Shown one piece after another: positions 23,619 to 57,053 of a DNA stretch of 64,000 nucleotides. The stretch is from IMG/VR virus record IMGVR_UViG_3300043446_003177, positions 96,001 to 160,000 of that record; one strand, written 5' to 3'. Under the pieces are notes generated by a model, which saw nothing but the letters and a program-made list of their open reading frames with translations, had not been told where the DNA came from and made no database searches. Source of the DNA: a virus. The stretch's first letter is position 1. Each line of letters begins with the position of its first letter. The translations under genes and the position numbers were made by a program.

Positions 23619-24052
23619 AACTAATGAGCAAAAATTTTGATGAACTAAATGAGACGTTTAACGTCGAGAGTTCTATTGTCGAAACAGAAAAAGATGACTC
23701 CGCAATAAAACCTATTGAAGAAAATAGTAAAGTTGATGATATTCAAAAGGATTATGAATATACTAGAGGAAATTTATATTCTTTAATTGAAAAAGGACAA
23801 GAAGCTATAAATGGAATTTTAGAACTTGCTCAAGAAAGTGAAATGCCCAGAGCTTATGAAGTTGCTGGGCAATTAATAAAAAGTGTTGCTGATGCAACAG
23901 ATAAATTAATGGACTTACAAAAGAAGTTAAAAGATATTGATGAAAGTAAATCCTCCAGAGGACCAACTACAGTAAATAATGCTCTTTTTGTAGGATCTAC
24001 TGCGGATTTAGCAAAATTTTTAAAACAACAATCGCAAAATGAAAACGTTTAA
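23615..24052 (+). CDS. gp16: Terminase small subunit gp16
   Basis: DYEYTRGNLYSLIEKGQEA, PRAYEVAGQLIK, NNALFVGSTADL; the start may be 23624. Confidence 0.92.
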   Translation: MKLMSKNFDELNETFNVESSIVETEKDDSAIKPIEENSKVDDIQKDYEYTRGNLYSLIEKGQEAINGILELAQESEMPRAYEVAGQLIKSVADATDKLMDLQKKLKDIDESKSSRGPTTVNNALFVGSTADLAKFLKQQSQNENV

Positions 24053-24194
24053 AGAATTTCAAGAAGAGTGGAGCAATAAATATAAGAAGAGTATTAATTG
24101 CTCAAATCCTAAAGGATTTTCTCAACGCGCCCATTGTGCCGGTAGAAAGAAAAGAGCAAAAGGTGAACAGACTAAATCAAAACCAGTTGAATAA
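24039..24194 (+). CDS. 51-aa putative internal head protein with capsid-targeting sequence
   Basis: Not in the ORF track. MKTFKEFQEEWSNKYKKSINCSNPKGFSQRAHCAGRKKRAKGEQTKSKPVE; TAATG coupling to the next gene. Confidence 0.75.
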   Translation: MKTFKEFQEEWSNKYKKSINCSNPKGFSQRAHCAGRKKRAKGEQTKSKPVE

Positions 24195-25930
24195 TGCCCA
24201 AGATAAAGTCCCATAAAACAGTTGAACAAATTGCAAAGAAGCATCGCCTTGATGTTTCTTTCATACAGAAGCAACTTGATATGGGAGAACCCATTGAACA
24301 TGAGCATACAAAAGATCATGAATTAGCGATGGATATTGCTCTTCAACATCTTGATGAAATTCCAGATTATTATACTCGATTAAAAAAAATGGAGGCATCC
24401 GCCAAAAAAGAACATAAAAAATTTAAAGATGTTACTGAAGAGGGTCTTCGTGATTGGTTTGGAAAATCAAAATCAAAAGATGGAAAAGCGGGTTGGGTAA
24501 ACGTTGTAACTGGCGGAACATGCGCTAGTGATGAACCTGGAGAAGGAGTTCCAAAATGTGTCTCTTCTTCAAAAAGAGCGAGTATGACTCCAGCAGAAAG
24601 ACGTTCTGCATCAAGAAGAAAAAAAGCGGCAGATTCTGGACAACAAGAAAAATCTGGTGCTGCAAAACCAACCTATGTTTCTACAGATTCACCTAAAAAG
24701 AAAATGAAAGAAGAAATGGAAGTACAAGAAGAAAAAGATAAACCAAGTAAAGGTAGTGGTAAAAAAGATGCTTGCTATCATAAGGTAAAGGCAAGATATG
24801 ATGTTTGGCCTAGTGCATATGCATCTGGTGCATTGGTCAAATGTCGCAAAAAAGGTGCTGCAAATTGGGGTACAAAATCCGAAGCGGTAGAAGAAGAAAG
24901 ATTTTGTCCATTATGCGATAAAAGGGAAAAAAGATCAGAATGTTCTTATGGGGAAGAAGCTTGGGATAAAGTATCAATTAAAGATCATGAATATTCTATG
25001 GCTAGATCAGAAATAAAGAACATTATTGATGCTGCTAAAAGACTTGAAAAGAAAGTAGCAAAAGGTGAAGGATCTCTGGAAGCTTGGGTACAATCAAAAA
25101 TTACTAAGGCTGCAGACTACATTGATACTGCTGCAGATTATGTTGCAAGTGGAGAAATGGAAGAAGCATGTTGGACTGGATATAAGCAAGTGGGGATGAA
25201 AAAGAAAGGAAAAAAAATTGTTCCTAATTGTGTTCCAGCATCCGAAGAAAAACTAGTAGATAAAATTGTAAACGAAATTATTTCTGAAAAGCAAAATTCA
25301 AGTACAATTGAAGATGCAAATGGAAACAGTTTTGTTGAAGTAGTTAACTTGATTGAACCGGAACCAATCAAAGGATTTAAATCACAAATTGAAGAGGCAA
25401 CACGTTTGCAGTCACAAACTGGAAATATAGTTGCAGTAACTATATCTTGGAGAGGAAAATATTATGCAATGCGTATGTTTTTCCCTCAGGCAAAAGTTCC
25501 ATCAAGAAAAGAAATTAATGATGAGATTAAAAAAGTATATCCAAATTCTATAGTTGTTGCTCACTCAGTTTCCGAGTTTACTCCAGGACAACCCTTAATC
25601 CAAACTGGAGTTCAGGGTGGAAGTTACGGAAATCCAGGTCCAAGCAAAAATTATGTAAAAACAATGGGTGAAGACTGGCAGTCAGTCAATCGCAAAGATA
25701 AAACTGATGGTCTCAGTCAAAAAGCTGTAAATGCTTATCGTCGTGAGAATCCAGGTTCAAAACTTCAAACTGCAGTAACAGAAAAGAACCCAACAGGTAA
25801 AAGAGCATCTCGTCGCAAATCATTCTGCTCAAGGATGAGTGGTATGAAAAAAAGATTAACTTCCGCAAAAACTGCAAACGATCCAGATTCCAGAATCAAC
25901 AAAGCCCTTCGTCGTTGGAACTGCAACTAA
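24194..25930 (+). CDS. 578-aa modular basic polyprotein (DUF5661-, DUF5872-, DUF6321-like modules), putative gp21-processed head cargo
   Basis: Short modules separated by Glu-rich junctions (VTEE, VQEE, VEEE, EMEE, QIEE, TMGE); DUF names recalled from memory, unverified. Confidence 0.65.
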   Translation: MPKIKSHKTVEQIAKKHRLDVSFIQKQLDMGEPIEHEHTKDHELAMDIALQHLDEIPDYYTRLKKMEASAKKEHKKFKDVTEEGLRDWFGKSKSKDGKAGWVNVVTGGTCASDEPGEGVPKCVSSSKRASMTPAERRSASRRKKAADSGQQEKSGAAKPTYVSTDSPKKKMKEEMEVQEEKDKPSKGSGKKDACYHKVKARYDVWPSAYASGALVKCRKKGAANWGTKSEAVEEERFCPLCDKREKRSECSYGEEAWDKVSIKDHEYSMARSEIKNIIDAAKRLEKKVAKGEGSLEAWVQSKITKAADYIDTAADYVASGEMEEACWTGYKQVGMKKKGKKIVPNCVPASEEKLVDKIVNEIISEKQNSSTIEDANGNSFVEVVNLIEPEPIKGFKSQIEEATRLQSQTGNIVAVTISWRGKYYAMRMFFPQAKVPSRKEINDEIKKVYPNSIVVAHSVSEFTPGQPLIQTGVQGGSYGNPGPSKNYVKTMGEDWQSVNRKDKTDGLSQKAVNAYRRENPGSKLQTAVTEKNPTGKRASRRKSFCSRMSGMKKRLTSAKTANDPDSRINKALRRWNCN

Positions 25931-26247
25931 TGAAATCATTCAATCAATTTCTATCAGAAGCTGTAAACATTGCCGGAGATTTTAACGGCAATCTATACAT
26001 TAATAGTTCTGAAATGCAATCAGAACAGGTTAAAGAATCTTTTTTTGCTGATGTTGTATGGGAAGGGAGACTTTATCGCCTTGAAGTTGAAGGTAGCATG
26101 ATGAATAAAACAGAACTAGCTGAACAACTTCAAGATCAATATCCAGGGGTAATTGTTCACAATATTTACCCACAACAACCATCAAGTTCATTAAAAATTA
26201 AAAATACGCAAAGATACCAACCAGAAAGATTGACTTGGAGTGACTAA
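25930..26247 (+). CDS. Putative internal head protein with capsid-targeting sequence (105 aa)
   Basis: True start is likely ATG 25930 (TAATG overlap): MKSFNQFLSEAVNIAG... Confidence 0.7.
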   Translation: MKSFNQFLSEAVNIAGDFNGNLYINSSEMQSEQVKESFFADVVWEGRLYRLEVEGSMMNKTELAEQLQDQYPGVIVHNIYPQQPSSSLKIKNTQRYQPERLTWSD

Positions 26248-26249
26248 TT

Positions 26250-27581: not shown

Positions 27582-27587
27582 ATTATT

Positions 27588-34236: not shown

Positions 34237-34410
34237 ATGGATATGGAAGACCTAATCGACATGATTGCTACTGACGAAAGTCCTTCTCAGATTAGCGACA
34301 AAATTAAAGATCTATTATTTTCAAAAGCTGCTTCTAAGATTGATGAATTCAAACCAGATGTAGCAAATTCGATGTTTGACTTTGAATCAGAAGAATCAGA
34401 AGAAGAATAA
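34237..34410 (+). CDS. Small acidic prohead core protein (gp67-like), 57 aa
   Basis: Not in the ORF track. MDMEDLIDMIATDESPSQISDKIKDLLFSKAASKIDEFKPDVANSMFDFESEESEEE; position after gp20 and acidic tail match T4 gp67. Confidence 0.65.
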   Translation: MDMEDLIDMIATDESPSQISDKIKDLLFSKAASKIDEFKPDVANSMFDFESEESEEE

Positions 34411-34448: not shown

Positions 34449-35006
34449 ATGGCGCATAAACCAGTAGGTGCGGGAATTTCATTATCAACAACTGCCGTTT
34501 CAGCATTAACCACTTCATTTTCCGTTCAATCAAATGTTCTGAGAGTGACTGCAGTTAATGCTGGGGCATTTGTTGCAATTGGAACAAACCCAACCGCATC
34601 AATTACAGATTATTATATTCCTGCAGGAAAATCAGAAACTCTTGCTTTAACAAAAGCATCACAAAGAGTTGCTGGTATAACAACCGGAACAACTACTATT
34701 ATTGATTTTCCAGAAGGAACTCAAACTCCTTTTGTTGCTGGAGATTATGTTACCTTAACAGTCACTGGGCAATCTTATTACAATTTTACCCATGTTCCTG
34801 TTATTTCCGTAAATAATACTGCATCTTATGATGGGTATTTTTCAAAGAGAATTGTCGTAGATTATAACTCAAGTGGTATTGTAACCGCATTTTCACCAAC
34901 AACATCATATGCTGATTTGAGAGGATCTATCAGAGTTGCTGCTAGAACCGAAGGTGGATCTGGAACCGTTTATATTCAACAAGTACAAATTTCAGGACAA
35001 GCATAA
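34449..35006 (+). CDS. Conserved cyanophage beta-rich hypothetical protein, probably head-associated
   Basis: 185 aa, preceded by AATAAATA (34412-34419), TAATG-coupled to gp21. Confidence 0.65.
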   Translation: MAHKPVGAGISLSTTAVSALTTSFSVQSNVLRVTAVNAGAFVAIGTNPTASITDYYIPAGKSETLALTKASQRVAGITTGTTTIIDFPEGTQTPFVAGDYVTLTVTGQSYYNFTHVPVISVNNTASYDGYFSKRIVVDYNSSGIVTAFSPTTSYADLRGSIRVAARTEGGSGTVYIQQVQISGQA

Positions 35007-35656
35007 TGAAACTTATTACCGAAGAAATCGAATCAGTAGAAGTTCTTACCGAAACGGTCAACGGTAAGAAGACTCTTTATATCCAAGGACCTTTCCTTCA
35101 AACTGAAGTTGTAAACAGAAACGGTAGAATGTATCGTTTACCTGTTATGGAAAGAGAGGTAAAGCGTTACACTGAACAATATGTAAATAAGGGTCGTGCT
35201 CTTGGAGAGCTTGGACACCCTGATGGTCCTACTGTAAATCTAGATCGAGTCTCCCATAAAATTGTTTCACTTCACCGCGAAGGAAATAATTTTATTGGTA
35301 AGGCGCAAATCCTCTCAACTCCAATGGGAAAAATTGCAGAGTCACTTTTAAAAGAAGGAGTTACTCTTGGCGTTTCCTCTCGTGGTATTGGTTCAGTCAA
35401 ATCTACTCGTGAAGGTTTTACTGAAGTTGGCGAAGATTTCATGCTAGCAACTGCTGCTGATATCGTTGCCGATCCTTCTGCTCCTGACGCTTTTGTTCAG
35501 GGAATCATGGAAGGAAAGGAATGGGTTTGGGAAGGTGGAATGCTCAGAGAAAGAGCAGCACAAAAAACTTATAAGAGAATTAATACTCTTGTAGACCAAA
35601 AACGTCTGGAAGAGCATAAATTGAATCTATTCAATGAGTTTTTAAACTCATTGTAA
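35006..35656 (+). CDS. gp21: Prohead protease gp21
   Basis: MKLITE, NRNGRMY, ALGELGHP, LGVSSRGIGS, DIVADPSAPDAFV. Confidence 0.97.
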   Translation: MKLITEEIESVEVLTETVNGKKTLYIQGPFLQTEVVNRNGRMYRLPVMEREVKRYTEQYVNKGRALGELGHPDGPTVNLDRVSHKIVSLHREGNNFIGKAQILSTPMGKIAESLLKEGVTLGVSSRGIGSVKSTREGFTEVGEDFMLATAADIVADPSAPDAFVQGIMEGKEWVWEGGMLRERAAQKTYKRINTLVDQKRLEEHKLNLFNEFLNSL

Positions 35657-35715: not shown

Positions 35716-36906
35716 ATGTCTCGTGGAGATTTACAAGAAATGGAAGTAGGCACTAAGCAATCCAAAACCGCTGTCAATGCAAATGCAAAAGCGGGAGATC
35801 CAATGCCTAAACTAGCAGCAGGTGCCGTTGCTGGGCAAACAGGTGGTTGGGAAGATCTGGGTGGTCCAGATCCAACAAACTATCGTCCAGATGATGACTC
35901 GGCTAAATTAAAAACACCTGGAGCAACTCTTAAGCAAGTTAGAGATGTTGTTAATAAGGGTGCTAAAGCTGCAGATCCAACTCCTCATATGAAAGGTGCT
36001 GTTAAAGAAGAAACCGAAGAAGATGAGGAAGATCTAATTGTAGACGAAGAGGATCTTGAAATCTCTGATGACGAAGAAGTAGTAGAAGAAGAAGCTTCTG
36101 AAAAAGAAGAAAAGGGTGAGAAGGAAGAGAAGGGTAAGAAGGATAAGGAAGAAGAAGAGGAAGAGGAAGAGATGGAAGAAGAGTTTAACATCGATGAAGA
36201 TGTTAATGCTCTCTTAGATGGCGAAGAGCTCTCTGAGGAATTCCAAGAGAAAGCACGTATCATTTTTGAAGCTGCTCTTCGTTCAAAAGTTTCTGATATT
36301 AAAGAAACTCTTGAAGAGCAGTATGAGCAAAGACTTTCTGAAGAAATTTCAGAAATCAAATCAGTTCTTCAAGAAAGAATTGATTCATACTTAGAGTATG
36401 TTGCTGACGAATGGTTTGAGGAAAATGCTCTAGCAATTGAGCATGGAATCAAAACCGAGATTACCGAGTCATTCCTCCAAGGAATGAAGGGTCTTTTTGA
36501 AGAGCATTATGTAACAATCCCTGAAGATAGATATGATGTTTTAGAGAGCATGGTAGACAAACTTGATGAAATGGAGACAAAACTCAACGAGCAGATTGAG
36601 AGAAATATTTCCCTAAACAAGCGCCTCGCAGAGTCGGTTGCTGACGGAATCTTAGATCAAGTCTCTGAGGGCCTTGCTGCTACTCAGAAAGAAAAGCTCG
36701 CTTCACTTGCCGAAAGTGTTGAGTTTGAAAGTGAAGAGGAATATCGTGAAAAACTGGAGACTTTAAAGGAATCATATTTTCCTTCCAGAACAGTATCTCC
36801 ATCAGCTAAAACAGAAACCCTCTCAGAGGGTTTAGACAGAGCACCTGAAAATGTAACAGGTTCGATGGCGGCTTATCTGAGAACGCTTTCATCTTTTAGC
36901 AAATAA
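35716..36906 (+). CDS. gp22: Prohead core scaffold protein gp22
   Basis: Highly acidic coiled coil, LSEEFQEKARIIFEAA, DSYLEYVADEW, KLETLKESYF; lies between gp21 and gp23. Confidence 0.93.
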   Translation: MSRGDLQEMEVGTKQSKTAVNANAKAGDPMPKLAAGAVAGQTGGWEDLGGPDPTNYRPDDDSAKLKTPGATLKQVRDVVNKGAKAADPTPHMKGAVKEETEEDEEDLIVDEEDLEISDDEEVVEEEASEKEEKGEKEEKGKKDKEEEEEEEEMEEEFNIDEDVNALLDGEELSEEFQEKARIIFEAALRSKVSDIKETLEEQYEQRLSEEISEIKSVLQERIDSYLEYVADEWFEENALAIEHGIKTEITESFLQGMKGLFEEHYVTIPEDRYDVLESMVDKLDEMETKLNEQIERNISLNKRLAESVADGILDQVSEGLAATQKEKLASLAESVEFESEEEYREKLETLKESYFPSRTVSPSAKTETLSEGLDRAPENVTGSMAAYLRTLSSFSK

Positions 36907-36956: not shown

Positions 36957-38387
36957 ATGTTCCATTCCGAGCATCTGCAGGAAAAGTGGGCACCACTCCT
37001 CAACTATGAGGGTCTTGATCAAATCAAAGATTCGCATCGTAGAGCGGTAACCGCAGTCCTGCTAGAAAACCAAGAAAGATTTTTAAGAGAGCAATCTGCA
37101 TTTGAAAGTGCAGGTTCATTCCTAACCGAAACTCCAGTAAACAGCACTGCTTCAAGTTCAACTGCAGGTTTCGGTGGTAGCGCACAAGGATTTAGCGCAG
37201 GTCCTACCGCAGGTTTCGACCCTGTTCTGATCTCTCTGATCAGACGCTCAATGCCTAACCTTGTTGCTTATGATCTCGCTGGCGTTCAACCAATGAACGG
37301 TCCAACCGGCCTGATCTTTGCAATGCGTTCACGCTACAACAACCAGAGCGGTACAGAAGCATTCTATAACGAAGTTGATACCGCATGGTCTGGTCAGCCA
37401 TTTGGCCGCGATAACGAAGATGGATTTACCAACGGTGCCGTTGGTATGGGTACTACTGCACAAAATGGTACAAACCCATCCGTTCTGAACGCAGCTGGTG
37501 CAGCTGGTGGCGACTACAATGTTGGTCAGGGTATGCGTACTGACCAGGCTGAAGCACTTGATAGTGGTGCGGACGCTTTCAACCAGATGGCGTTCTCAAT
37601 CGAGAAGGTTACCGTTACTGCAAAGTCACGCGCCCTCAAGGCTGAGTACACCTTAGAACTCGCACAAGACCTCAAGGCAATCCACGGTCTGAATGCTGAA
37701 GCGGAACTCGCAAATATTCTCTCAACTGAGATTCTTGCTGAGATCAACCGCGAAGTCATCAGAACCATCTACAAGGTTGCTGAACAGGGTGCTGCTCAAA
37801 ACACCGCTACTGCTGGTGTATTTGACCTCGACGTTGATTCAAACGGTCGTTGGTCGGTTGAGAAGTTCAAGGGTCTACTCTTCCAGATCGAGAGAGATGC
37901 AAACGCAATCGCTCAAAGAACTCGTAGAGGAAAGGGCAACATCATCATGTGCTCTGCTGACGTTGCTTCAGCACTGACCATGGCTGGTGTTCTCGATTAC
38001 ACCCCTGCGCTCAATGCTAATCTGTCTGTTGATGATACCGGTAATACTTTTGCTGGTACTCTGATGGGCAAATTCCGCGTCTACATTGACCCATATGCTG
38101 CTAACCTGACTTCAGGTAACGCTGCTCCAACAGGTGGTAACCAGTACTACGTTGTTGGTTATAAGGGTTCTTCACCTTATGACGCAGGTCTCTTCTATTG
38201 CCCATATGTTCCTCTCCAAATGGTACGTGCCGTTGGTGAGAACAGCTTCCAGCCTAAGATCGGCTTTAAGACCCGTTATGGAATGGTTGCAAACCCATTC
38301 GCTGAGGGTACTACCCAGGGTCAAGGCAATCTCACTGTTAACGCAAACCGTTACTACAGAAGAGTTGCTGTGAAAAATTTAATGTGA
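36957..38387 (+). CDS. gp23: Major capsid protein gp23
   Basis: KWAPLL, GSFLTE maturation site, LIRRSMPNLVAYDLAGVQPMNGPTGLIFAMR, AKSRALKAEYTLELAQDLKAIHG, FQPKIGFKTRYG. Confidence 0.99.
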   Translation: MFHSEHLQEKWAPLLNYEGLDQIKDSHRRAVTAVLLENQERFLREQSAFESAGSFLTETPVNSTASSSTAGFGGSAQGFSAGPTAGFDPVLISLIRRSMPNLVAYDLAGVQPMNGPTGLIFAMRSRYNNQSGTEAFYNEVDTAWSGQPFGRDNEDGFTNGAVGMGTTAQNGTNPSVLNAAGAAGGDYNVGQGMRTDQAEALDSGADAFNQMAFSIEKVTVTAKSRALKAEYTLELAQDLKAIHGLNAEAELANILSTEILAEINREVIRTIYKVAEQGAAQNTATAGVFDLDVDSNGRWSVEKFKGLLFQIERDANAIAQRTRRGKGNIIMCSADVASALTMAGVLDYTPALNANLSVDDTGNTFAGTLMGKFRVYIDPYAANLTSGNAAPTGGNQYYVVGYKGSSPYDAGLFYCPYVPLQMVRAVGENSFQPKIGFKTRYGMVANPFAEGTTQGQGNLTVNANRYYRRVAVKNLM

Positions 38388-38464: not shown

Positions 38465-38791
38465 ATGCCTAGACCAATTACCAATACCACTGGATTTTAT
38501 GGAGAAGGGAAAACCAAAAGACGGGCAGAAAATCATCGTATAAATGTTAGAAAACGTAGAGATGAAAGAAAACAATACTTAGTTGATCATTTTGGAGATA
38601 AGTGTCATGATTGTAAAAATAGTTTTCCAGTATGTTGCTATGATTTTCATCATATAGACCCATCTACAAAATCTTTTGAAATTGCCCCTAGATTAGACGG
38701 AAATTTGGAAACTATTATGGAAGAGGTAAAAAAATGTATAATGATATGCTCAAACTGTCATAGAATTAGACACTATAAAGAAAGCAGATAA
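38465..38791 (+). CDS. Free-standing HNH endonuclease (probable mobile homing endonuclease)
   Basis: CHDC...YDFHHIDP...KKCIMICSNCHRIRH zinc-binding HNH pattern. Confidence 0.8.
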   Translation: MPRPITNTTGFYGEGKTKRRAENHRINVRKRRDERKQYLVDHFGDKCHDCKNSFPVCCYDFHHIDPSTKSFEIAPRLDGNLETIMEEVKKCIMICSNCHRIRHYKESR

Positions 38792-46013: not shown

Positions 46014-46128
46014 AAAGGAACAGAAGCGGAAACTGAAACCGCAAGCACTTCGACAAGCAAAGGCACGTCGCCAAGCACTCAAGAAGCGTCTCAACTCTAG
46101 AGACGCTTCTTTTTTTATAAATAACTAA
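45982..46128 (+). CDS. Small basic conserved cyanophage protein (48 aa)
   Basis: MTTPNWQHHSKKEQKRKLKPQALRQAKARRQALKKRL...; ATG at 45982. Confidence 0.65.
   Translation: MTTPNWQHHSKKEQKRKLKPQALRQAKARRQALKKRLNSRDASFFINN
46081..46116 (+). terminator. Rho-independent terminator, inside the 3' end of the small ORF
   Basis: AAGAAGCGTCTC-AACTCTA-GAGACGCTTCTT plus T-run. Confidence 0.85.
46116..46123 (+). promoter_or_regulatory. Late promoter TATAAATA
   Basis: Exact consensus 20 nt before ATG 46144. Confidence 0.8.
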
Positions 46129-46143: not shown

Positions 46144-47337
46144 ATGGATTCAAAAGAACTTCGCAATTTATACGAAGCGTATAATCAAGTTTATCAGATT
46201 GATGAAATTTCTGCTGATCTTGCATTGAAGGCAAGTAAGGAGGCAGATATTAAAAGAGGTAAACTTGCTCATGCTGGTGATAAAGCAGGTGCTGCTGCTA
46301 AAGCAGCACAAGCCTCGCGTCTTTATAAAGCGCAAGCAGCAAAGAGACTGAATAGAGAAGAGTTTGAACTTTGGGTAAATTCTCTTGTAGAAGAAGGTTA
46401 TGACCTTTCTGACTACACTTGGGATGAAATGTATGAGTTTTATCTTGGTGAAGCAATCACTAGCGAAAAGGGTAAAGCAAAAGCAGCAGAAATGATTGCT
46501 AAGCGCACTACTGCTTCTGGTAGAGCAAAACCAGGACAAGGTGATAATGTTGCTACAATCAAGCACATTAGTCGTTCTAATAGAGACGGACTTCTGGGAA
46601 CTCCCCCTAATCGTAAAGTAGCAGGTTCCAATTGGCCAAAATCATATACTGGAATTGGGGGAACTGGAAACAAAGCAGCAAGAAGAGCAGCAGCACTCAA
46701 GAAAGAAGAAGTTGATATCTTTGATATTGTTCTTGAGTTCCTCCAAGTAGAAGGATATGCAGAAACTCTTGAAGAAGCAGAGTGGATAATGGCAAATCTA
46801 ATTGATGATGAAGCGATTGAAATTATCCTTGGCGAATCTGCACTTGGAACTATGGCTGTTCTGGGTGGTATGGCGGCAGGTCGTGCTATTCATGGCAAAC
46901 TGCAAGATAGAAAAGCAAAAAAAGAATATGAAGCAAAGAAAAGAACTAGTGATTATTTGATCATGAAAGACAGAACTAAAGATGCTGTTGCTAGAGATAG
47001 ATCTTCTAGTGGTGATACGAGGAAAGAAGAATTTGAAGCATGGTTTGATGCAATTCTTGAAGCACGTAGAGCTGATAAAGAAGGTTATGAAAGAGGTAGT
47101 GCAGCAAACCCTAAGAGAAAAGATATTCCTCATGGAGATCCTTCTCAAAGATCAATGCTGCACTCCAAACTGAAGAGACGTGCTGATGAAATGGGAAGAG
47201 AAAGAAGAAGTTCTTCTGCATATAAAGCAGGCAGCCGTCCTCCTGTTTCTAAAAAAGAAAAGGCATTTTTGCAAGCAGCAGATAGAACTAGACAAAGTAT
47301 TAGAAATCCAAATGTTCCCAACACTGGAAAGCACTGA
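46144..47337 (+). CDS. Late polyprotein with alternating acidic spacers and basic peptides (putative gp21-processed head cargo)
   Basis: Spacers end in IDE, LGE, LGE, ILE; intervening K/R/A-rich segments; own late promoter. Confidence 0.65.
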   Translation: MDSKELRNLYEAYNQVYQIDEISADLALKASKEADIKRGKLAHAGDKAGAAAKAAQASRLYKAQAAKRLNREEFELWVNSLVEEGYDLSDYTWDEMYEFYLGEAITSEKGKAKAAEMIAKRTTASGRAKPGQGDNVATIKHISRSNRDGLLGTPPNRKVAGSNWPKSYTGIGGTGNKAARRAAALKKEEVDIFDIVLEFLQVEGYAETLEEAEWIMANLIDDEAIEIILGESALGTMAVLGGMAAGRAIHGKLQDRKAKKEYEAKKRTSDYLIMKDRTKDAVARDRSSSGDTRKEEFEAWFDAILEARRADKEGYERGSAANPKRKDIPHGDPSQRSMLHSKLKRRADEMGRERRSSSAYKAGSRPPVSKKEKAFLQAADRTRQSIRNPNVPNTGKH

Positions 47338-47338
47338 G

Positions 47339-47393
47339 ACCACTTTTTAAACTGTCCACATGGAGGTCTTTTGACCTCCTTTTTTTGTATAAT
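47339..47393 (+). promoter_or_regulatory. Early-type promoter with upstream dyad motif and TATAAT
   Basis: CCACTT-N4-AACTGTCCA then TATAAT at 47388-47393; same layout at 50890-50944. Confidence 0.65.
47362..47386 (+). terminator. Rho-independent terminator
   Basis: GGAGGTC-TTTT-GACCTCC plus T7. Confidence 0.85.
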
Positions 47394-47414
47394 GATTTCA
47401 TACGCATCAGACCT

Positions 47415-49565
47415 ATGACCGTCCGCCACGAAATCAAGTCCCAACTTGCTAAACTGCTTGCTACCGAAGACCTTGTGGTTGAGCACAAGAAGGTAGAGAC
47501 TGCCCAGTTTAATGTTCATACCCGTGTGCTCACCCTGCCTATGTGGGAGAAGGCAAGCAACACCGTGTATGACCTGCTGGTGGGGCACGAGGTCGGACAT
47601 GCTCTCTATACGCCTGATGAAGACTGGTTGAAGGAATATAAAATTCCTCCGCAGTTTGTGAATGTGGTTGAAGATGCTCGTATCGAGAAACTGATGAAGC
47701 GTCGGTATCCTGGTCTTGCTAAGACTTTTTATAACGGATACAAAGAACTCGCTGAGCAAGATTTCTTTCAACTTGCCGATGAGAAACTTGATGAGATGAA
47801 TCTTGCTGACCGTGCAAACCTGTGGTTCAAAATTGGTAACTTTACTGATATTTTGATTGAGGGTGATGAAGAAACTGAAATCATTAATTTGATTTCTGAT
47901 GCAGAAACTTTTGCTGATGTGCTGATTGCTGCAGAAGCACTCTATAAGTATTGTAAGCAAAAGCAACAAGAAGAAACCAAGACTCAACTGGATGATCTCC
48001 AGTCGCAAGATTCTGGTGCAAGTCAGCAACCTGCTTCTGATTTTTCTGATCAACAAGAGGGTGAGAATGACCAACCTGAGTCTGATGGTTCAGAAGGTTC
48101 TTCTTCTGGAGAAGATTCTCAACAACAGAAACCCACTAATTCTCCTTCTGGAGGTGAAAAAGATACCGAGCCTGAAGTTAAAACAATGGATTCTTTGGAA
48201 GATGCTCTCAAAGATCTTCTGAGTAAAGATGGGTATGAAAATGTTTATTTGGAACTTCCCCAACTTGATCTAAGTAAAGTTATTGTTCCTAATTCTCAGA
48301 TTCATAATCGTTGTAAGGAAGAGTGGGATACTTGGGTTGAACGTATGGACTATACTAAAGAACTTATTTTTGGAAGTGTTGATGCCCAGTTTAATGAGTT
48401 CAAGCGTTCTGCTCAGAAAGAAGTCAATTATTTGGTCAAAGAGTTTGAATGCCGTAAAGCAGCAGACTCTTATGCTCGTGCATCTACTTCTCGCACGGGT
48501 GTTCTGGATTGCACTAAGCTTCACACCTATAAGTATAATGAAGACTTGTTCCGTAAAGTAACGACACTTGCTGATGGTAAGAATCATGGTCTGGTGTTTG
48601 TTCTGGACTGGTCTGGTTCAATGTGTGATGTGATGTTGGATACGGTCAAGCAACTTTTCAACCTTGTCTGGTTCTGTAAGAAAGTTGCTATTCCGTTCGA
48701 TGTTTATGCCTTTACATCCGATTACCCCTTGGTTTCTTATGATGAAAATAATAAAGCAAGTCTTCGTGAACTTTCCTATAAGAAGCGTGATGGTCTAGTT
48801 CAGGTTGGTGAATGGTTCTCGATGATGAATCTTCTCACCAGTAAGGTGAATGGTAAGACTCTGGATGAGCAGATGAAGAACATCTTTCGTCTTGCAACTT
48901 CTTTCGGCCGCTGGTCTCAATGTTCTTACACAACTCCTACTGGACTGAGTTTGTCTGGAACTCCTCTGAATGAAGCACTTATTTCTCTTCATCAGATCCT
49001 TCCCAAGTTCCAGAAAGAAAACAAACTCCAGAAAGTTCAGTGTGTGGTTTTGACTGATGGTGAGGCGTGTATGGTGAAGTATCATCGTCAAGTTCAGCGT
49101 CACTGGGAACAAGAACCTTTTATAGGCACTTCTCATATTGGTCCTAATGCTTTTCTTCGTGACCGTAAGACTGGTAATACCTATTCTTGCGATGTTGAGT
49201 GGAGTGGTTTTAGTGATGTTCTTCTCCGCAACCTTCGTGATAAGTTTGCTGATATTAACTTTATTGGTATTCGTGTTCTTGAAGGTCGTGATGCTGGTAA
49301 CTTTATCCGCCGCTACTGTGGATTCTTTGGACCTAATTTTGAAAAGACAATGACTGCTTGGAAAAAAGAAAAAGCATTTACAATTAAACAATCTGGTTAT
49401 CATTCCTACTTTGGTCTTTCTGCTTCTGCGCTTACCCAAGATAGTGGATTTGATGTTGCAGAAGATGCTACTAAATCTCAAATCAAATCTGCTTTTGTGA
49501 AGAGTTTGAAGTCTAAGAAGATGAACAAAAAAATTCTTGGTGAGTTTGTGGAACTGATTGCGTAG
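47415..49565 (+). CDS. CobT-like protein: N-terminal HExxH metallopeptidase-like domain, acidic linker, C-terminal VWA domain
   Basis: LVGHEVGHALY, NVVEDARIE, MIDAS LDWSGSM, SGTPL, VLTDGE; start probably ATG 47415, downstream of the -10 box. Confidence 0.85.
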   Translation: MTVRHEIKSQLAKLLATEDLVVEHKKVETAQFNVHTRVLTLPMWEKASNTVYDLLVGHEVGHALYTPDEDWLKEYKIPPQFVNVVEDARIEKLMKRRYPGLAKTFYNGYKELAEQDFFQLADEKLDEMNLADRANLWFKIGNFTDILIEGDEETEIINLISDAETFADVLIAAEALYKYCKQKQQEETKTQLDDLQSQDSGASQQPASDFSDQQEGENDQPESDGSEGSSSGEDSQQQKPTNSPSGGEKDTEPEVKTMDSLEDALKDLLSKDGYENVYLELPQLDLSKVIVPNSQIHNRCKEEWDTWVERMDYTKELIFGSVDAQFNEFKRSAQKEVNYLVKEFECRKAADSYARASTSRTGVLDCTKLHTYKYNEDLFRKVTTLADGKNHGLVFVLDWSGSMCDVMLDTVKQLFNLVWFCKKVAIPFDVYAFTSDYPLVSYDENNKASLRELSYKKRDGLVQVGEWFSMMNLLTSKVNGKTLDEQMKNIFRLATSFGRWSQCSYTTPTGLSLSGTPLNEALISLHQILPKFQKENKLQKVQCVVLTDGEACMVKYHRQVQRHWEQEPFIGTSHIGPNAFLRDRKTGNTYSCDVEWSGFSDVLLRNLRDKFADINFIGIRVLEGRDAGNFIRRYCGFFGPNFEKTMTAWKKEKAFTIKQSGYHSYFGLSASALTQDSGFDVAEDATKSQIKSAFVKSLKSKKMNKKILGEFVELIA

Positions 49566-49572
49566 ATAAATA
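49565..49572 (+). promoter_or_regulatory. Late promoter GATAAATA
   Basis: 21 nt upstream of ATG 49594. Confidence 0.6.
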
Positions 49573-49593: not shown

Positions 49594-50709
49594 ATGCAAC
49601 TTCCAGAAGAACTTCTTGATGAGAGAACCCTGATGAAAATGAAAGGATCCAAGAAATCAGGCACTATGCCTATTCCTGGATCCGAAGGTGCTGCACGAAA
49701 AGATGTTGCTCGTGCTGGATTTAGAAAAAAGGGTCCAATTCAAGATCCTAAAGTTGAGAAAAGTGGAAAAGATGTTCCTGTTTGGGTAAGAACTCATAAA
49801 TCTCCTGCTGATTATGCTGCTCATACAGCAAAGCAAAAACATAAAGAAGGTGAAAAAACTGATACTAAAGAATTAAGAAAACAGTTTCATAAAACTGGAG
49901 CTAAAAAAGATAGTGAAGTTCATGATATTACTGTAGGATCCCCCAAATCAAAAGTAAAAGATCCTGGGCAAAGGGCAAGACAATTTGTCGGTGCTTTAAA
50001 AGATGTTAAAGATAAAATGAAGGAAAAGAAAGGAGTTGCTACAAATACTCCAACTGCTATTGATTCCACTAAAACAAAAAATAAAAAAAATAGAAGTGGG
50101 GAAGAAGGTGCAGAGCAAAGAGGTAGAATTTATAAGAAACTCGGAATGGGCGAAAGAAATCCAAAGACAGGAGTACAAATGGCAAAATTAGGAGAATGCA
50201 AGTCTTTCAGTCAGTTCATGTTAGAGTGTAATTCTATTCAAGAAACATCTCTGAACAGAATTAGATCTAAGTCGGAAAAAGGCGGAATGGCTATCATGTC
50301 TGCTCAACGTGGTGATAAATCTAAGTCAGAAAATAAAGCACGTTCTAAGCAACTTGAGAAGGATGTGAGGGGCGCTGGTCTTCCCGGACCCACCAAAGTT
50401 AAAGGTAGATATACTGAAAATCCAGGAACACCTCAAGAGAAAAAAGTAGGAGAAAAGTCCCACGTCATTACTCCTGGTAAGAAAGGCAAAAGAAAGTTTA
50501 AAAAGGCAATCGAAAAATTAGGTAAGAAGTATGATCAAGACTCTGTTCTCATCCAACGTAAGAAGGGTGGGAGTGCAACTCTTAAAGGAACATCAAAAAC
50601 ATCTTGGCCTGGAAAGGGAAAGAATGTTAAAATTGGTAAAATGAAACCTGGACGTACAGGTGAGTTTGATACTAAGGTAAAAAACAAAACATTTACAGTT
50701 GAGGATTGA
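49594..50709 (+). CDS. Lys-rich two-domain late protein: degenerate GNAT-like N-domain, capsid-targeting-like linker, SAM-lyase-like C-domain
   Basis: C-domain motifs SAQR, ENKARSKQL, GRYTE, GEKS, QDSVL collinear with T3 SAMase motifs as I recall them; linker KSFSQFMLE. Confidence 0.55.
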   Translation: MQLPEELLDERTLMKMKGSKKSGTMPIPGSEGAARKDVARAGFRKKGPIQDPKVEKSGKDVPVWVRTHKSPADYAAHTAKQKHKEGEKTDTKELRKQFHKTGAKKDSEVHDITVGSPKSKVKDPGQRARQFVGALKDVKDKMKEKKGVATNTPTAIDSTKTKNKKNRSGEEGAEQRGRIYKKLGMGERNPKTGVQMAKLGECKSFSQFMLECNSIQETSLNRIRSKSEKGGMAIMSAQRGDKSKSENKARSKQLEKDVRGAGLPGPTKVKGRYTENPGTPQEKKVGEKSHVITPGKKGKRKFKKAIEKLGKKYDQDSVLIQRKKGGSATLKGTSKTSWPGKGKNVKIGKMKPGRTGEFDTKVKNKTFTVED

Positions 50710-50976: not shown

Positions 50977-52107
50977 ATGTCTCGCAAGTCCTCTGTGAAC
51001 GACCAACAACTTATTGAAAGCATTAAAGAACTCTATGGTTCTGAAATTACTTCTGGCGACCTCAAAGGTTTCTGTGCATCTCGTAGTCTCAACTATCAGA
51101 CCGTTACTCGTCGTCTTGAAAATTATAAAACTGCTCGTGGTCGCTGGAATCTTGAAGTGACTCAAGAACGTGTTGAAGAGATCGAACGTTCCTTCCAAGC
51201 CCCTGCTGTTATTCCTTCTGTGGAACAAAACCTCATTCCCGATAAAGATGATACCTTCGTCAAGTTTGGTAACTTTGGTGATATTAAAAAAATTATTCAG
51301 TCCCGTATCTTTTACCCTGCGTTTATCACGGGTCTGTCGGGTAACGGTAAAACGTTCTCGGTGGAGCAAGCATGTGCTCAACTCAAGCGTGAAATGATTC
51401 GTGTGAATATCACTATTGAGACTGACGAGGATGACCTGATTGGTGGTTTCCGCCTTGTGAATGGTGAAACTGTCTGGCACAATGGTCCCGTAGTGGAAGC
51501 ACTTGAGCGTGGCGCTGTACTCCTTCTGGATGAGATCGACCTTGCTTCTAACAAGATCCTGTGCCTGCAATCCATTCTGGAAGGTAAGGGTGTATTCCTT
51601 AAAAAGATTGGTCGCTTCGTGAAACCTGCCGCTGGTTTCAACGTCATCGCAACCGCCAACACCAAGGGTAAGGGTTCTGATGACGGTCGCTTTATCGGCA
51701 CCAATGTGCTCAACGAAGCCTTCCTTGAGCGTTTCCCTGTGACCTTTGAGCAGTCCTATCCCGCCCCTGCTACTGAGCAGAAGATCCTGGAAGGCATCGC
51801 TCTGGACCTGGGTGTGGAAGACCGCGACTTCTGCAAGCGCCTGGTGGACTGGGCAGACATCATCCGTAAGACCTTCTACGATGGTGGTATTGAGGAAATC
51901 ATCAGCACCCGCCGTCTGACTCACATTATCCGTGCCTACAGTATCTTCCAAGATAAGGCAAAGGCAATTCAAGTGTGTGTGAACCGCTTTGATGATGAAA
52001 CCAAGCAGTCTTTCTTGGAACTGTATGATAAGGTGGATGCTGACTTCCAGATGCCCACAAATCAAGTGGATATCACTCCTGGAATTGACTCTCCGCATCC
52101 GTTCTGA
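50977..52107 (+). CDS. cobS: CobS-like MoxR AAA+ ATPase
   Basis: GLSGNGKT, DEDDLIGG, LLLDEID, IATANTKG, NEAFLERF, ISTRRL. Confidence 0.92.
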   Translation: MSRKSSVNDQQLIESIKELYGSEITSGDLKGFCASRSLNYQTVTRRLENYKTARGRWNLEVTQERVEEIERSFQAPAVIPSVEQNLIPDKDDTFVKFGNFGDIKKIIQSRIFYPAFITGLSGNGKTFSVEQACAQLKREMIRVNITIETDEDDLIGGFRLVNGETVWHNGPVVEALERGAVLLLDEIDLASNKILCLQSILEGKGVFLKKIGRFVKPAAGFNVIATANTKGKGSDDGRFIGTNVLNEAFLERFPVTFEQSYPAPATEQKILEGIALDLGVEDRDFCKRLVDWADIIRKTFYDGGIEEIISTRRLTHIIRAYSIFQDKAKAIQVCVNRFDDETKQSFLELYDKVDADFQMPTNQVDITPGIDSPHPF

Positions 52108-53461: not shown

Positions 53462-53463
53462 TT

Positions 53464-55466: not shown

Positions 55467-55849
55467 CTTATGAATTGAAGGAGTGGTTGAATTCTATTAA
55501 TTTTACTAAAGAAAATTTAATAGAAGAATCCTTGGATCTGATAAAAGATTATCCACCCTATATTGTTAATAGATGCTTATCTGGGCATATTGATTGCATA
55601 CTCTTTGCAAATGAGATAAACATGAATCATCACCTCGACAAAGATATGCAATATTCATTTTATCTAAATAGTCTTAGGAAAAAGAAGAGATTTTCTCCTT
55701 GGATCCGAAAAGATAAAATCAAAGATTTAGAATGCATTAAAAAATACTATGGATATAGTAATGAAAAAGCATCTCAAGCTTTGAAGATTCTAAACAAAGA
55801 ACAATTAGACTTTATTAAAAAACGACTTGAAACTGGCGGAACAAAATGA
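55463..55849 (+). CDS. gp62: Clamp loader small subunit gp62
   Basis: LKEWLNSIN, YPPYIVNRCLS, RKKKRFSPW, KYYGYSNEKA. Confidence 0.93.
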   Translation: MTYELKEWLNSINFTKENLIEESLDLIKDYPPYIVNRCLSGHIDCILFANEINMNHHLDKDMQYSFYLNSLRKKKRFSPWIRKDKIKDLECIKKYYGYSNEKASQALKILNKEQLDFIKKRLETGGTK

Positions 55850-56286
55850 CTAACCAAACAATTGAACCTCAAGTAAACTGGTCCCCTGATATGATGGTGG
55901 AGGTTATTCTTAATGAACCAGATGACTTTTTAAAAGTCCGTGAAACTTTGACTCGTATCGGAGTAGCATCGAGAAAGGAGAAAAAATTATACCAATCTTG
56001 CCACATTCTTCATAAGCAGGGTAGGTATTATATTACTCACTTTAAGGAACTGTTTGCCCTGGATGGTAAACATGCTAACCTGACTGTAAATGACGTTCAG
56101 CGTCGCAATCGTATTGCCCAACTTCTTGCTGATTGGGGTCTTATTACAATTGTTGAACTGAAAAAAATTCAAGATATCGCACCACTTAACCAAATCAAAG
56201 TTCTTTCTTATAAGGAAAAGAATGAATGGGTTTTAGAAACTAAGTATAATATTGGTTCTAAAAAGAAAAAAGAAGAGGAAGTTTGA
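55846..56286 (+). CDS. regA: Translational repressor RegA
   Basis: PDDFLKVRETLTRIGVAS, LYQSCHILHKQGRYYITHFKELF, LLADWGL. Confidence 0.97.
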   Translation: MTNQTIEPQVNWSPDMMVEVILNEPDDFLKVRETLTRIGVASRKEKKLYQSCHILHKQGRYYITHFKELFALDGKHANLTVNDVQRRNRIAQLLADWGLITIVELKKIQDIAPLNQIKVLSYKEKNEWVLETKYNIGSKKKKEEEV

Positions 56287-56373
56287 TAAATAAGTATGAG
56301 ACCTTTCGTGCGGTCTCTACGAAAGTCGGAACACCCTAAAAAGAGGTTCGGTTTTTACCGCTCCTCTTTTTTT
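56285..56373 (+). ncRNA. Candidate short late structured RNA (late promoter, hairpin, terminator)
   Basis: GATAAATA 56285-56292; GAGACC/GGTCTC hairpin; terminator GAGG-tt-CGGT-tttt-ACCG-ct-CCTC-T7; no credible ORF. Confidence 0.45.
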
Positions 56374-56395
56374 CGTTTCTTGTATAATTAATAAT

Positions 56396-56451
56396 GGATG
56401 CCGTAAGGGTCCACACAACACAAACTCGCTTAAAAAGGAGCTACTATAATG
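56396..56451 (+). promoter_or_regulatory. hsp20 5' leader with ROSE-like RNA thermometer
   Basis: TATAAT at 56383-56388; GNRA hairpin 56396-56412; CTCGCTT pairs with the SD AAGGAG leaving a bulged G. Confidence 0.6.
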
Positions 56452-56883
56452 ACTAACCTTTCGCGCTATACGACTGCAGATCTTCCTACTCTGCTCGATA
56501 AGATCACTCGCAATAGTATTGGAATGGATGAATACTTTGACCGTCTTTTCCATCTACACGAAACCACTACGAATTATCCACCATATAATCTTGTCCAAGT
56601 CAGTAATGTGGAATCACGACTTGAACTTGCTCTTGCTGGATTTAAGAAGAAGGAGGTTTATGTCTACACGCAAGATGGTAAACTCTTTGTCGAAGGTCAA
56701 AAAGAAGATAAAGAAACGGAGTCCAACTATGTCCACAAAGGTTTGGCTCAACGGAGTTTTAAGAGAGCGTGGACACTCTCTGATGATACGGAAGTACGAT
56801 CAGTTGATTTTGAGGATGGGCTTTTAACTATTACTCTTGGTAGGATTGTGCCGGAACATCACAAACGAAAAGACTATCTATAA
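56449..56883 (+). CDS. hsp20: Small heat-shock protein Hsp20
   Basis: NYPPYNLV, LELALAGF, YVHKGLAQRSF, FEDGLLTITL. Confidence 0.96.
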   Translation: MTNLSRYTTADLPTLLDKITRNSIGMDEYFDRLFHLHETTTNYPPYNLVQVSNVESRLELALAGFKKKEVYVYTQDGKLFVEGQKEDKETESNYVHKGLAQRSFKRAWTLSDDTEVRSVDFEDGLLTITLGRIVPEHHKRKDYL

Positions 56884-56886
56884 ATA
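56879..56886 (+). promoter_or_regulatory. Late promoter TATAAATA
   Basis: Exact consensus 11 nt upstream of ATG 56898. Confidence 0.75.
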
Positions 56887-56897
56887 AAAATAAAAAA

Positions 56898-57053
56898 ATG
56901 AAAACGTTTCGGGAATTTATTTCTATAATAAATGAAATGAAAGGTGATTTTGGTTCGGATGTAAAACCACCAAAACCAAAATGTTATGGTAAAACTACAA
57001 CATATGCTATGCTTCCCGGAAAACGTGTTTGTAAATTTAAACGTAAAAGATAA
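56898..57053 (+). CDS. 51-aa putative internal head protein with capsid-targeting sequence
   Basis: Not in the ORF track. MKTFREFISIINEMKGDFGSDVKPPKPKCYGKTTTYAMLPGKRVCKFKRKR. Confidence 0.72.
   Translation: MKTFREFISIINEMKGDFGSDVKPPKPKCYGKTTTYAMLPGKRVCKFKRKR

What the first reader, a model, noticed from the sequence alone, without database searches (positions are those of the whole stretch)
24039..57053. Dispersed family of capsid-targeted, prohead-protease-matured cargo (poly)proteins
Seen: six accessory ORFs share one grammar. N-terminal or internal K-[TS]-F-x-[EQ]-F motifs occur at 24039 (MKTFKEFQEE), 25930 (MKSFNQFLSE), 56898 (MKTFREFISIINE) and about 50200 (KSFSQFMLE). Repeated [ILVM]-x-E junctions followed by basic modules occur in 24194, 46144 and 49594. 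The three lying outside the structural operon (46144, 49594, 56898) each have their own NATAAATA late promoter. Known: T4 internal proteins begin MKTFKEF (IPI) or MKTYQEFIAE (IPII/IPIII). This capsid-targeting sequence is removed by gp21 after [IL]-x-E, the site seen here in gp23 (GSFLTE); the proteins are injected with the DNA, and IPI* blocks the GmrSD nuclease. Inference: the phage has a modular payload system in which late cassettes are packaged, cut by gp21 into many small effectors, and delivered at infection.
Basis: partly seen in the sequence, partly recalled or inferred. Interest (0 to 1): 0.88.

Follow-up and report, generated by a model that had tools for sequence, protein, structure and literature searches.

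The report
Cyanophage head-cargo tags and polyproteins
This T4-like ocean cyanophage puts the ten-residue tag that phage T4 uses to load proteins into its head on several late proteins, one of them a SAM-destroying enzyme. It also joins small basic modules at head-protease cutting motifs, so it probably packs, cuts and injects ready-made proteins, though no cut or injection has been measured.

Summary
The window comes from a 172-kb T4-like cyanomyovirus. The motifs, late promoters and gp23 site are all at the stated coordinates.

- **Tag is not chance.** Three genes start M-K-[TS]-F-x-[EQ]-F (chance about 1e-11). The same DNA pattern picks out ipI, ipII and ipIII in T4. Across 104 marine viral N-termini found with it, the unconstrained positions 8 and 10 match the T4 tag.
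- **Internal motif in 49594.** It is homologous to the N-terminal tag of stand-alone relatives. It precedes a domain with the T3 SAM-lyase fold and conserved binding residues.
- **46144.** It carries a different, equally conserved leader.
- **Junctions.** [ILVM]-x-E density in the window's proteins is at chance level. However, three module types always begin right after [ILV]-x-E (67/67, 123/123, 64/64), whatever lies upstream.
- **Virion evidence.** Homologues of 24194 and 46144, and of a tagged nucleotidyltransferase just outside the window, were detected in purified cyanophage virions in published mass spectrometry.

**Verdict:** most likely a T4-type internal-protein system extended to modular polyproteins and enzymes. 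Packaging has indirect support. Cleavage and injection are inferred. This scan reached similar conclusions on other genomes.

The parts
24039..24194 (+). 51-aa gene: type-1 (T4 CTS-like) leader, variant with Glu at 9-10 and no aliphatic residue at 8, followed by a basic two-Cys module. It overlaps the start of the next gene by 1 nt.
   Evidence: Orthologues in Bellamy, SynMITS9220M01 and IMG/VR contigs keep the leader. It is collinear with the N-terminus of single tagged ORFs in L016/L048/L066.
24194..25930 (+). 578-aa lysine-rich modular protein (DUF5661, several unnamed modules, DUF6321) with no leader of its own. It sits in the variable slot between gp16 and gp17.
   Evidence: Its modules occur elsewhere as stand-alone tag+module proteins. 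The S-SCSM1 homologue gp029 is annotated 'virion protein' in the record of a phage whose virion proteome was measured by mass spectrometry.
25930..26247 (+). 105-aa gene with a canonical type-1 leader (F4, F7, L8, E10, A11). The family is conserved in 135 cyanophage records.
   Evidence: The family profile also hits residues 406-454 of the 24194 protein (E 8e-4 within the genome's ORFs).
35006..35656 (+). gp21-type prohead protease, the presumed processing enzyme.
   Evidence: phrog_207 head maturation protease, E 7.6e-82. It has the second-highest [ILVM]-x-E density in the proteome.
35716..36906 (+). gp22-type scaffold, the presumed core that tagged proteins join.
   Evidence: phrog_237, E 1.9e-110. 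It has the highest [ILVM]-x-E density in the proteome, 6.3%.
37122..37130 (+). L-T-E codons in gp23 (residues 56-58), the candidate maturation site.
   Evidence: read directly from the sequence. Cleavage is not shown.
46081..46123 (+). Intrinsic terminator (12-bp stem plus T run) immediately followed by TATAAATA at 46116.
46144..47337 (+). 397-aa mosaic basic protein with the type-2 leader (21 residues ending I-D-E). It has an internal module that starts right after L-G-E.
   Evidence: The C-terminal 245 residues are 62% identical to S-SCSM1 gp089, which is annotated a virion protein.
47362..47379 (+). Intrinsic terminator that closes the 46144 cassette.
49565..49572 (+). GATAAATA late-promoter motif, 29 nt upstream of 49594.
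49594..50196 (+). N-terminal basic module (~200 aa) of the 371-aa protein. It begins right after L-D-E at residue 10 and ends in L-G-E.
50200..50226 (+). Internal type-1 tag (KSFSQFMLE), homologous to the N-terminal tag of stand-alone relatives.
50245..50706 (+). SAM-lyase domain, beginning right after I-Q-E.
   Evidence: Pfam PF23780, E 4.5e-16. Model pLDDT 92.7. Foldseek top hit is T3 SAM lyase 8bb1_E, E 3.6e-6. The profile matches T3 SAMase at E 1.6e-4 with G-x-Y, E and Q-D-S aligned.
56879..56886 (+). TATAAATA late-promoter motif, 19 nt upstream of 56898.
56898..57053 (+). 51-aa gene with a type-1 leader extended to I-N-E at residue 13, followed by a basic peptide.
   Evidence: An 88% identical copy with the same leader is in L028. 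A distant copy is in S-SRM01.

Best explanation
These genes encode T4-style internal head proteins.

**Proposed mechanism**
1. They are transcribed late from NATAAATA promoters.
2. A short leader directs them into the assembling prohead core. The leader is either the T4-type tag (F at 4 and 7, aliphatic at 8, Glu at 10) or a second 21-24-residue leader.
3. The gp21-type protease then cuts after [ILV]-x-E. This removes the leader and separates the concatenated modules.
4. The products stay in the head with the DNA and enter the next host with it.

**Cargo**
- Very basic small modules, probably DNA-associated.
- A SAM lyase in the 49594 protein. It would destroy S-adenosylmethionine on arrival and so blunt SAM-dependent restriction or BREX-type defence before any phage gene is expressed.

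**Status of each step**
- Shown here: the motifs, their portability, their restriction to T4-like contigs, the promoter motifs, the junction signature, and the enzyme's fold and residues.
- Taken from published work: virion presence of homologues.
- Inferred: targeting, cleavage, injection and enzyme activity.
For: **1. Same tag as T4.**
- The degenerate DNA pattern hits only ipI, ipII, ipIII and gp61.1 in T4.
- T4 genetics place targeting at residues 4 and 7 and processing at 8 and 10 (PMC9026906).

**2. Portability.**
- In 104 unique IMG/VR N-termini selected only on positions 1-7, position 8 is I/L in 58 and position 10 is E in 64.
- Both conditions together hold in 48, against a 1.1% background.
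- The cargoes are unrelated to each other.

**3. Host range of the motif.**
- 102 of 118 such loci share genes with this cyanomyovirus.
- Podoviruses P-SSP7 and Syn5 and siphovirus P-SS2 have none.

**4. SAM-lyase relatives.**
- 107 of the 120 best SAM-lyase relatives start with MK[TS][FY] or a one-residue variant of it.
- All 119 in which the domain-start motif could be located have [ILV]-x-E directly before the domain.

**5. N-module of 49594.**
- 78 of 81 relatives that could be scored carry a tag by the search pattern: 8 N-terminal, 63 after the module, 7 both.
- The other 3 have a degenerate copy by eye.

**6. Junction signature.**
- P1 is always Glu (0 bits) and P3 is only I/L/V, while P2 and P4-P8 are variable (2.2-3.6 bits).

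**7. Promoters.**
- Late promoters occur only before structural genes and these three cassettes. NATAAATA is the published cyanomyovirus late promoter (PMC2984593).

**8. Virion evidence from homologues.**
- The S-SCSM1 paper names only the NMNAT among these proteins as MS-detected. That protein starts with the type-1 tag.
- The RefSeq record labels gp029, gp089 (type-2 leader) and gp279 (C-terminal tag) 'virion protein'.
- The tagged T4-GC190 transferase was detected in S-SM1 virions (PMC3037559).

**9. Enzyme.**
- SAM-lyase fold and ligand-binding residues are present.
Against: - No proteomic, N-terminal or expression data exist for this uncultured phage.
- [ILVM]-x-E density in the candidates is at the proteome average.
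- 24194 has no leader. Its S-SCSM1 homologue is labelled a virion protein also without one, so a tag is not required for that family, and its location (head or elsewhere) is unknown.
- The 24039 leader has Phe, not an aliphatic residue, at P3 of its only candidate site.
- The Glu before the SAM-lyase domain is conserved even in distant relatives without a canonical tag. It could therefore be partly a structural residue of the domain.
- The 25930 homologue in S-SCSM1 is not labelled a virion protein.
- S-PM2 gave no hit on its gene strand with the relaxed DNA pattern, and its copy of the transferase has a different N-terminal architecture.
- In T4 only N-terminal tags have been tested.
Confidence: 0.68

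Rival explanations
1. The proteins are packaged or virion-associated, but the multi-module chains stay intact. On this reading the [ILV]-x-E at module borders reflects linker or domain-start composition, not protease sites.
For: The raw site density is at chance. The Glu before the SAM-lyase domain persists in distant relatives without a clear tag. Published proteomes give no peptide-level termini.
Against: P1 = Glu and P3 = I/L/V are invariant at three unrelated module types, while the neighbouring positions vary freely. The motif equals the leader's own processing site. gp22 and gp21, which are known gp21 substrates in T4, top the density ranking here.
Confidence: 0.18
2. The conserved N-terminus has another role, such as a late-gene translation start context or a recombination linker for swapping gene cassettes. 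On this reading the proteins act in the producing cell and are not head cargo.
For: The tag-coding DNA sits at cassette borders and could promote exchange, as was proposed for T-even IP loci (my own knowledge of Repoila et al. 1994, not checked here). A SAM lyase could also act late in the producing cell.
Against: The motif is kept at protein level with synonymous codon differences. It occurs in frame inside and at the C-terminal end of proteins, where it cannot serve initiation. Tagged homologues are found in purified virions.
Confidence: 0.08
3. The internal motif in 49594 is an assembly or gene-calling artefact that joins two neighbouring genes.
For: Stand-alone relatives start with Met exactly where this ORF has Cys.
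Against: The same fused architecture recurs in independent metagenome proteins P0128, P0135, P0141 and P0144. In addition, 63 of 81 relatives of the N-module are fused in frame to a tag.
Confidence: 0.03

Closest known systems
Phage T4 internal proteins IPI, IPII and IPIII with the capsid-targeting sequence (Mullaney & Black 1996, as reviewed in PMC9026906)
   Same: Same ten-residue N-terminal tag in the critical positions 4, 7, 8 and 10. Late genes. A gp21/gp22-type head core is encoded nearby. The cargo is basic. There is precedent (IPI*) for an injected anti-restriction function.
   Different: Here the tag also sits inside or at the C-terminal end of proteins. The cargo is built from shuffled modules strung together at cutting motifs. 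A second unrelated leader exists. The cargo includes enzymes. Nothing has been tested at the bench.
Phage T3 SAM lyase (gp0.3; PDB 8BB1, 7OCK) and Svi3-3 (6ZM9)
   Same: Same fold (Foldseek E 3.6e-6). The profile matches T3 SAMase. The G-x-Y, Glu and Gln-Asp/Glu-Ser ligand-binding residues are conserved.
   Different: T3 makes its enzyme as the first early protein after infection. Here the gene has a late promoter and a head-targeting tag, which implies delivery as a ready-made protein. Sequence identity is only 14-17%.
Ejection proteins of giant phages SPN3US and phiKZ, processed by the prohead protease (PMC5694885, PMC10052503; titles and abstracts seen only in the search listing, papers not read)
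   Same: Many head-internal proteins are matured by a T4-related prohead protease after a short x-x-E motif and enter the host.
   Different: Different propeptides. No shared ten-residue tag is reported. The proteins are large rather than chains of small shuffled modules.
Polyvalent proteins of phages and conjugative elements (Iyer et al. 2017; my own knowledge, not checked here)
   Same: Multi-domain proteins delivered with the DNA and proposed to be cut into separate effectors.
   Different: Those carry their own peptidase domains and are very large. Here the cutter would be the head-maturation protease, and the modules are small and mostly basic.

Membership tests
T4-type CTS-bearing internal head proteins | N-terminal tag M-K-T-[YF]-x-E-F-[IL]-x-E, with aromatic residues at 4 and 7 | tested here: met
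   25930 meets it fully. 56898 and 24039 meet positions 1-7. 49594 carries it internally. The pattern is specific for the IP genes in T4.
T4-type CTS-bearing internal head proteins | Processing site [IL]-x-E at the end of the tag | tested here: inconclusive
   Present in 25930 (L-S-E), 56898 (I-N-E at 13) and 49594 (M-L-E, then I-Q-E). 24039 has only F-Q-E. Actual cleavage was not tested.
T4-type CTS-bearing internal head proteins | gp21-type prohead protease and gp22-type scaffold in the same genome | tested here: met
   phrog_207 E 7.6e-82 and phrog_237 E 1.9e-110.
T4-type CTS-bearing internal head proteins | Late expression | tested here: inconclusive
   NATAAATA motifs are at the right distance and only before structural genes and these cassettes. 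There are no transcript data.
T4-type CTS-bearing internal head proteins | Presence in the mature head and ejection with the DNA | not testable with these tools
   Only indirect evidence: homologues are in the S-SCSM1 and S-SM1 virion proteomes.
SAM lyase (Pfam PF23780, T3 SAMase family) | Family profile match above the curated cut-off | tested here: met
   59.5 bits against a cut-off of 28, E 4.5e-16.
SAM lyase (Pfam PF23780, T3 SAMase family) | Fold of solved SAM lyases | tested here: met
   Model pLDDT 92.7. Hits: 8bb1_E E 3.6e-6 (TM 0.63/0.71), plus 7ock and 6zm9.
SAM lyase (Pfam PF23780, T3 SAMase family) | Conserved ligand-binding residues (Svi3-3 Gly56, Tyr58, Glu69, Gln104-Glu105-Ser106; PMC7877911) | tested here: met
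   G-x-Y, an invariant Glu and an invariant Gln followed by Asp-Ser are present in the 75-sequence alignment and aligned to T3 SAMase.
SAM lyase (Pfam PF23780, T3 SAMase family) | Cleavage of SAM to MTA and homoserine lactone | not testable with these tools
   Needs an enzyme assay.

The most novel reading that the evidence does not exclude
T4-like marine phages use a position-independent head-address tag (N-terminal, internal or C-terminal) plus at least one further leader class. With these they load a freely shuffled kit of modules and active enzymes (SAM lyase, an NMNAT-like transferase) into the capsid. The head protease cuts the kit apart at [ILV]-x-E, and it is injected as a ready-made counter-defence arsenal. 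This would make protein delivery, not only DNA delivery, a general feature of the ocean's most abundant myoviruses.
Probability: 0.4. Interest if true: 0.85.

Novelty: new variant of a known kind. Interest (0 to 1): 0.7.

Why it matters
- It would explain why enzymes and many unknown proteins keep appearing in purified cyanophage particles.
- It gives a simple sequence rule for predicting head cargo in thousands of uncultured marine phage genomes.
- It suggests that abundant ocean phages deliver pre-made anti-defence enzymes.
- The tag and the cutting motif are directly testable with virion N-terminomics in cultured relatives.
- I found no paper linking the T4 tag to cyanophages among the open-access papers and preprints searched. 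Subscription journals were not covered.

Tried and rejected
- **Raw [ILVM]-x-E counting.** Counts in the window's proteins are at chance level, so they were not used as support.
- **BLAST segment ends as module borders.** Too noisy to use, although the peaks at 203 and 215 of the 49594 protein fit.
- **gp21 on the tagged IMG/VR contigs.** Found on only 2 of 28. The contigs are 5-45% complete fragments, so this says nothing. It was replaced by a shared-gene test.
- **Single-sequence search of the SAM-lyase domain against PDB sequences.** Nothing found. The profile search and the fold search did find matches.
- **Fold of the 25930 protein.** Only pLDDT 65, with no significant match. The best was T7 Gp2 at E 0.2, kept as a weak lead only.
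- **BLASTP of 25930 against 24194.** Not significant (E 0.21). The profile search gave E 8e-4.
- **S-SCSM1 supplement.** It holds no peptide-level data, so cleavage could not be read from it.
- **Frameshift fusion of 24039 to 24194.** Considered, but no slippery site was seen, and the overlap types (TAATG here, ATGA in relatives) are ordinary coupling signals.
- **Complex prediction.** Not used. The binding partner of the tag is not known even in T4.
Full report
**What the window is.** It is bases 96001-160000 of a 172,232-bp IMG/VR virus record. The gene order is gp15, gp16, a variable slot, gp17, gp18, gp19, gp20, gp21, gp22, gp23, gp3, then replication and metabolic genes. The nearest public genomes are Kyanoviridae such as SynMITS9220M01 and Bellamy, at about 79% DNA identity in the head genes.

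**Checking the observation.**
- A six-frame scan of the whole genome finds the motif in real ORFs only at these four places, three of them directly after the start codon.
- From the proteome's own composition, 0.0005 N-terminal copies are expected in 250 genes, so P(>=3) is 1.6e-11.
- The same degenerate DNA pattern run on T4 returns ipI, ipII and ipIII plus the small ORF 61.1 and nothing else.
- A review of T4 work states that targeting depends mainly on residues 4 and 7 of the tag and processing on residues 8 and 10 (PMC9026906).

**Is the tag a portable unit?** I scanned IMG/VR with a DNA pattern that fixes only residues 1-7.
- Among 104 unique N-termini, residue 8 is I or L in 58 and residue 10 is E in 64. 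Aliphatic-8 plus Glu-10 occurs in 48, against 1.1% per position elsewhere in the same proteins. Residue 11 is most often Ala or Ser.
- The cargoes behind the tag are unrelated: nucleotidyltransferases, P-loop kinases, small basic proteins and the modules of the 24194 protein.
- Of the 118 loci, 102 share at least one gene (E<1e-10) with this phage and 45 share five or more.
- The 16 loci that share none include several ORFs too short to be genes. I took most of these to be chance matches without testing them.
- T7-like cyanophages P-SSP7 and Syn5 and siphovirus P-SS2 have no copy. P-SSM2, S-SCSM1 and HTVC008M have two or three each.
- Syn9's copy of the tagged transferase keeps F4, F7, L8, E10 and A11 but differs at positions 3 and 6.

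**The 49594 gene.**
- *C-terminal half.* It matches Pfam S-AdoMet_lyase. It has 1578 relatives within the searched length range. Of the 120 best, 107 start with MK[TS][FY] or a one-residue variant of it. The 170-residue stand-alone forms begin with Met exactly where this ORF reads Cys-Lys-Ser-Phe. The internal motif is therefore a true homologue of an N-terminal tag.
- *N-terminal 200 residues.* They are a module in their own right with 85 relatives. Of the 81 that could be scored, 8 have a tag at the N-terminus, 63 after the module (followed by varied cargo, or ending the protein), 7 at both places, and 3 have a degenerate copy.
- *Recurrence.* The architecture seen here recurs in independent metagenome proteins, so it is not an assembly artefact.
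- *Fold and residues.* An AlphaFold model of the domain (pLDDT 92.7) has T3 SAM lyase as its best PDB match (E 3.6e-6), followed by Svi3-3. A profile of 75 relatives matches T3 SAMase by sequence (E 1.6e-4), with G-x-Y, Glu and Gln-Asp-Ser aligned. These are the residues that the Svi3-3 structure paper names as conserved ligand binders (PMC7877911).

**The junction claim.**
- Within this phage alone, the density of [ILVM]-x-E in the three long proteins is ordinary. By contrast, gp22 and gp21 rank first and second in the proteome, as expected from T4 biology.
- The support comes from relatives. The SAM-lyase domain, the AITSEKG-type module of 46144 and the N-module of 49594 are each preceded by [ILVM]-x-E in every instance (123/123, 67/67, 64/64). 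Their positions range from residue 9 to 362 and their upstream sequences are unrelated.
- Entropy is 0 bits at P1 (Glu). P3 is restricted to I, L or V. P2 and P4-P8 carry 2.2-3.6 bits.
- By eye, four of the five module borders in 24194 show the same pattern in all four phages compared (this phage, Bellamy, SynMITS9220M01 and S-SCSM1). The DUF6321 border shows it in only two of the four.
- A caution: the Glu before the SAM-lyase domain is also kept in distant relatives that lack a clear tag. It may therefore be partly structural.

**46144 uses another leader.** None of its 120 best relatives has the T4-type tag. By my reading of the listed N-termini, about 100 of the 120 begin with a conserved stretch of about 21-24 residues (consensus close to M-D-S-K-E-L-R-G-L-x-E-A-Y-x-x-V-Y-A-P-Q-E-V-D-E) that ends in [VI]-x-E. 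Behind it lie highly mosaic bodies that cover only 23-80% of the query. The gene is an insulated cassette: terminator, TATAAATA, gene, terminator.

**24039, 24194 and 25930.**
- They lie in the variable slot between gp16 and gp17, as in Bellamy and SynMITS9220M01.
- In other contigs, a single ORF carries the tag, a Cys module and then DUF5661, collinear with 24039 plus 24194. Here and in the two isolates the tag gene is separate and overlaps the next start.
- Individual modules of 24194 occur elsewhere as stand-alone proteins behind their own tag (L035, L119, L041, L073, L117).
- The 25930 family profile hits residues 406-454 of 24194.

**Late expression.** NATAAATA is the published late promoter of cyanomyoviruses (PMC2984593). 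In this genome it is strongly strand-biased (42 against 7). In the window it precedes gp15, gp18, gp20, two small head-region genes, gp22, an HNH gene and gp3. It also precedes exactly the three candidate cassettes outside the structural block.

**Experimental anchor from the literature.**
- The S-SCSM1 virion proteome (45 proteins by mass spectrometry) includes an NMNAT-like enzyme. The authors note that such enzymes recur in cyanophage virions (PMC9602691). That gene starts with the type-1 tag.
- In the S-SCSM1 RefSeq record, three further proteins are labelled 'virion protein': the homologue of 24194 (gp029), the homologue of 46144 with the type-2 leader (gp089), and a 69-residue protein that ends in a tag-like motif (gp279). 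I took these labels to reflect the paper's mass-spectrometry set. The paper itself names only the NMNAT among these.
- Sullivan et al. detected the same transferase (T4-GC190) in S-SM1 particles (PMC3037559).
- This genome's copy lies just outside the window (genome 160934). It starts with a type-1 tag that has Arg at position 6, and it has AATAAATA upstream.

**Verdict.**
- The most likely reading is a T4-type internal-protein system that cyanomyoviruses have expanded. The expansions are a portable tag usable at several positions, a second leader, concatenated modules separated by protease motifs, and enzymes as cargo.
- Packaging is supported indirectly. Cleavage, injection and activity are inferences.
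- Earlier notes of this scan on other genomes reached similar conclusions. I saw those notes only after obtaining most of these results (the type-2 leader and the SAM-lyase fold came later). I did not use them as evidence.

Noticed in passing
L136:934-2178 (genome 160934-162178, 934 bases past the window end): A fifth tagged gene: a type-1 leader with Arg at position 6, on a 414-aa cytidylyltransferase/NMNAT-like protein (T4-GC190), with AATAAATA upstream. Its homologues are the enzymes repeatedly detected in cyanophage virions.
   Followed up: yes
L136:2188-3930 (genome 162188-163930): A 580-aa protein, the second most basic in the genome. It contains a module also found fused to SAM lyase in P0088. 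Its first residues resemble the start of S-SCSM1 gp280, the virion-labelled protein at the same gene position after the transferase. This may be a third leader class.
   Followed up: partly
L157:7127-7336 (S-SCSM1 gp279): A 69-aa protein labelled 'virion protein' in the S-SCSM1 record ends in a tag-like motif (R-T-F-K-E-F-L-E-Y-I-E, then stop). This suggests the tag can work at the C-terminus.
   Followed up: partly
L132:267-431 (T4 gene 61.1): The uncharacterised 54-aa T4 ORF 61.1, next to the primase gene, begins with a perfect tag including I-K-E at 8-10. Similar small Gly/Pro-rich proteins behind the tag occur in marine contigs L007, L019, L072 and L074.
   Followed up: no
window 25930-26247: The best-folded core of this tagged 105-aa protein (two strands, a helix, a strand; pLDDT about 85) has T7 Gp2, the host RNA-polymerase inhibitor, as its top structural match. 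The match is only E 0.2, so it is a lead, not a finding.
   Followed up: partly
window 38465-38791: An HNH endonuclease gene (phrog_3106, E 1.6e-33) sits between gp23 and gp3 with its own TATAAATA. It is probably a homing-endonuclease insertion.
   Followed up: no
window 34237-34410: A 57-aa very acidic ORF with a late promoter sits between gp20 and gp21. By position and composition it looks like the gp67 prohead-core protein, which the cyanophage gene table seen does not appear to list.
   Followed up: no
L009, L013, L071 (IMG/VR contigs of 84-132 kb): These contigs carry residues 1-7 of the motif. L009 and L071 share no gene with this phage. CheckV completeness of 12-25% on all three implies genomes of 500-700 kb. 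Their positions 8-10 fit poorly, so they may be chance hits or a different virus group.
   Followed up: no
window 47385-49565 and 50977-52107: The two long candidate cassettes flank a cobT-like gene and precede cobS. This whole 46-52 kb stretch has a higher G+C content (0.40-0.43) than the window's typical 0.29-0.38.
   Followed up: no
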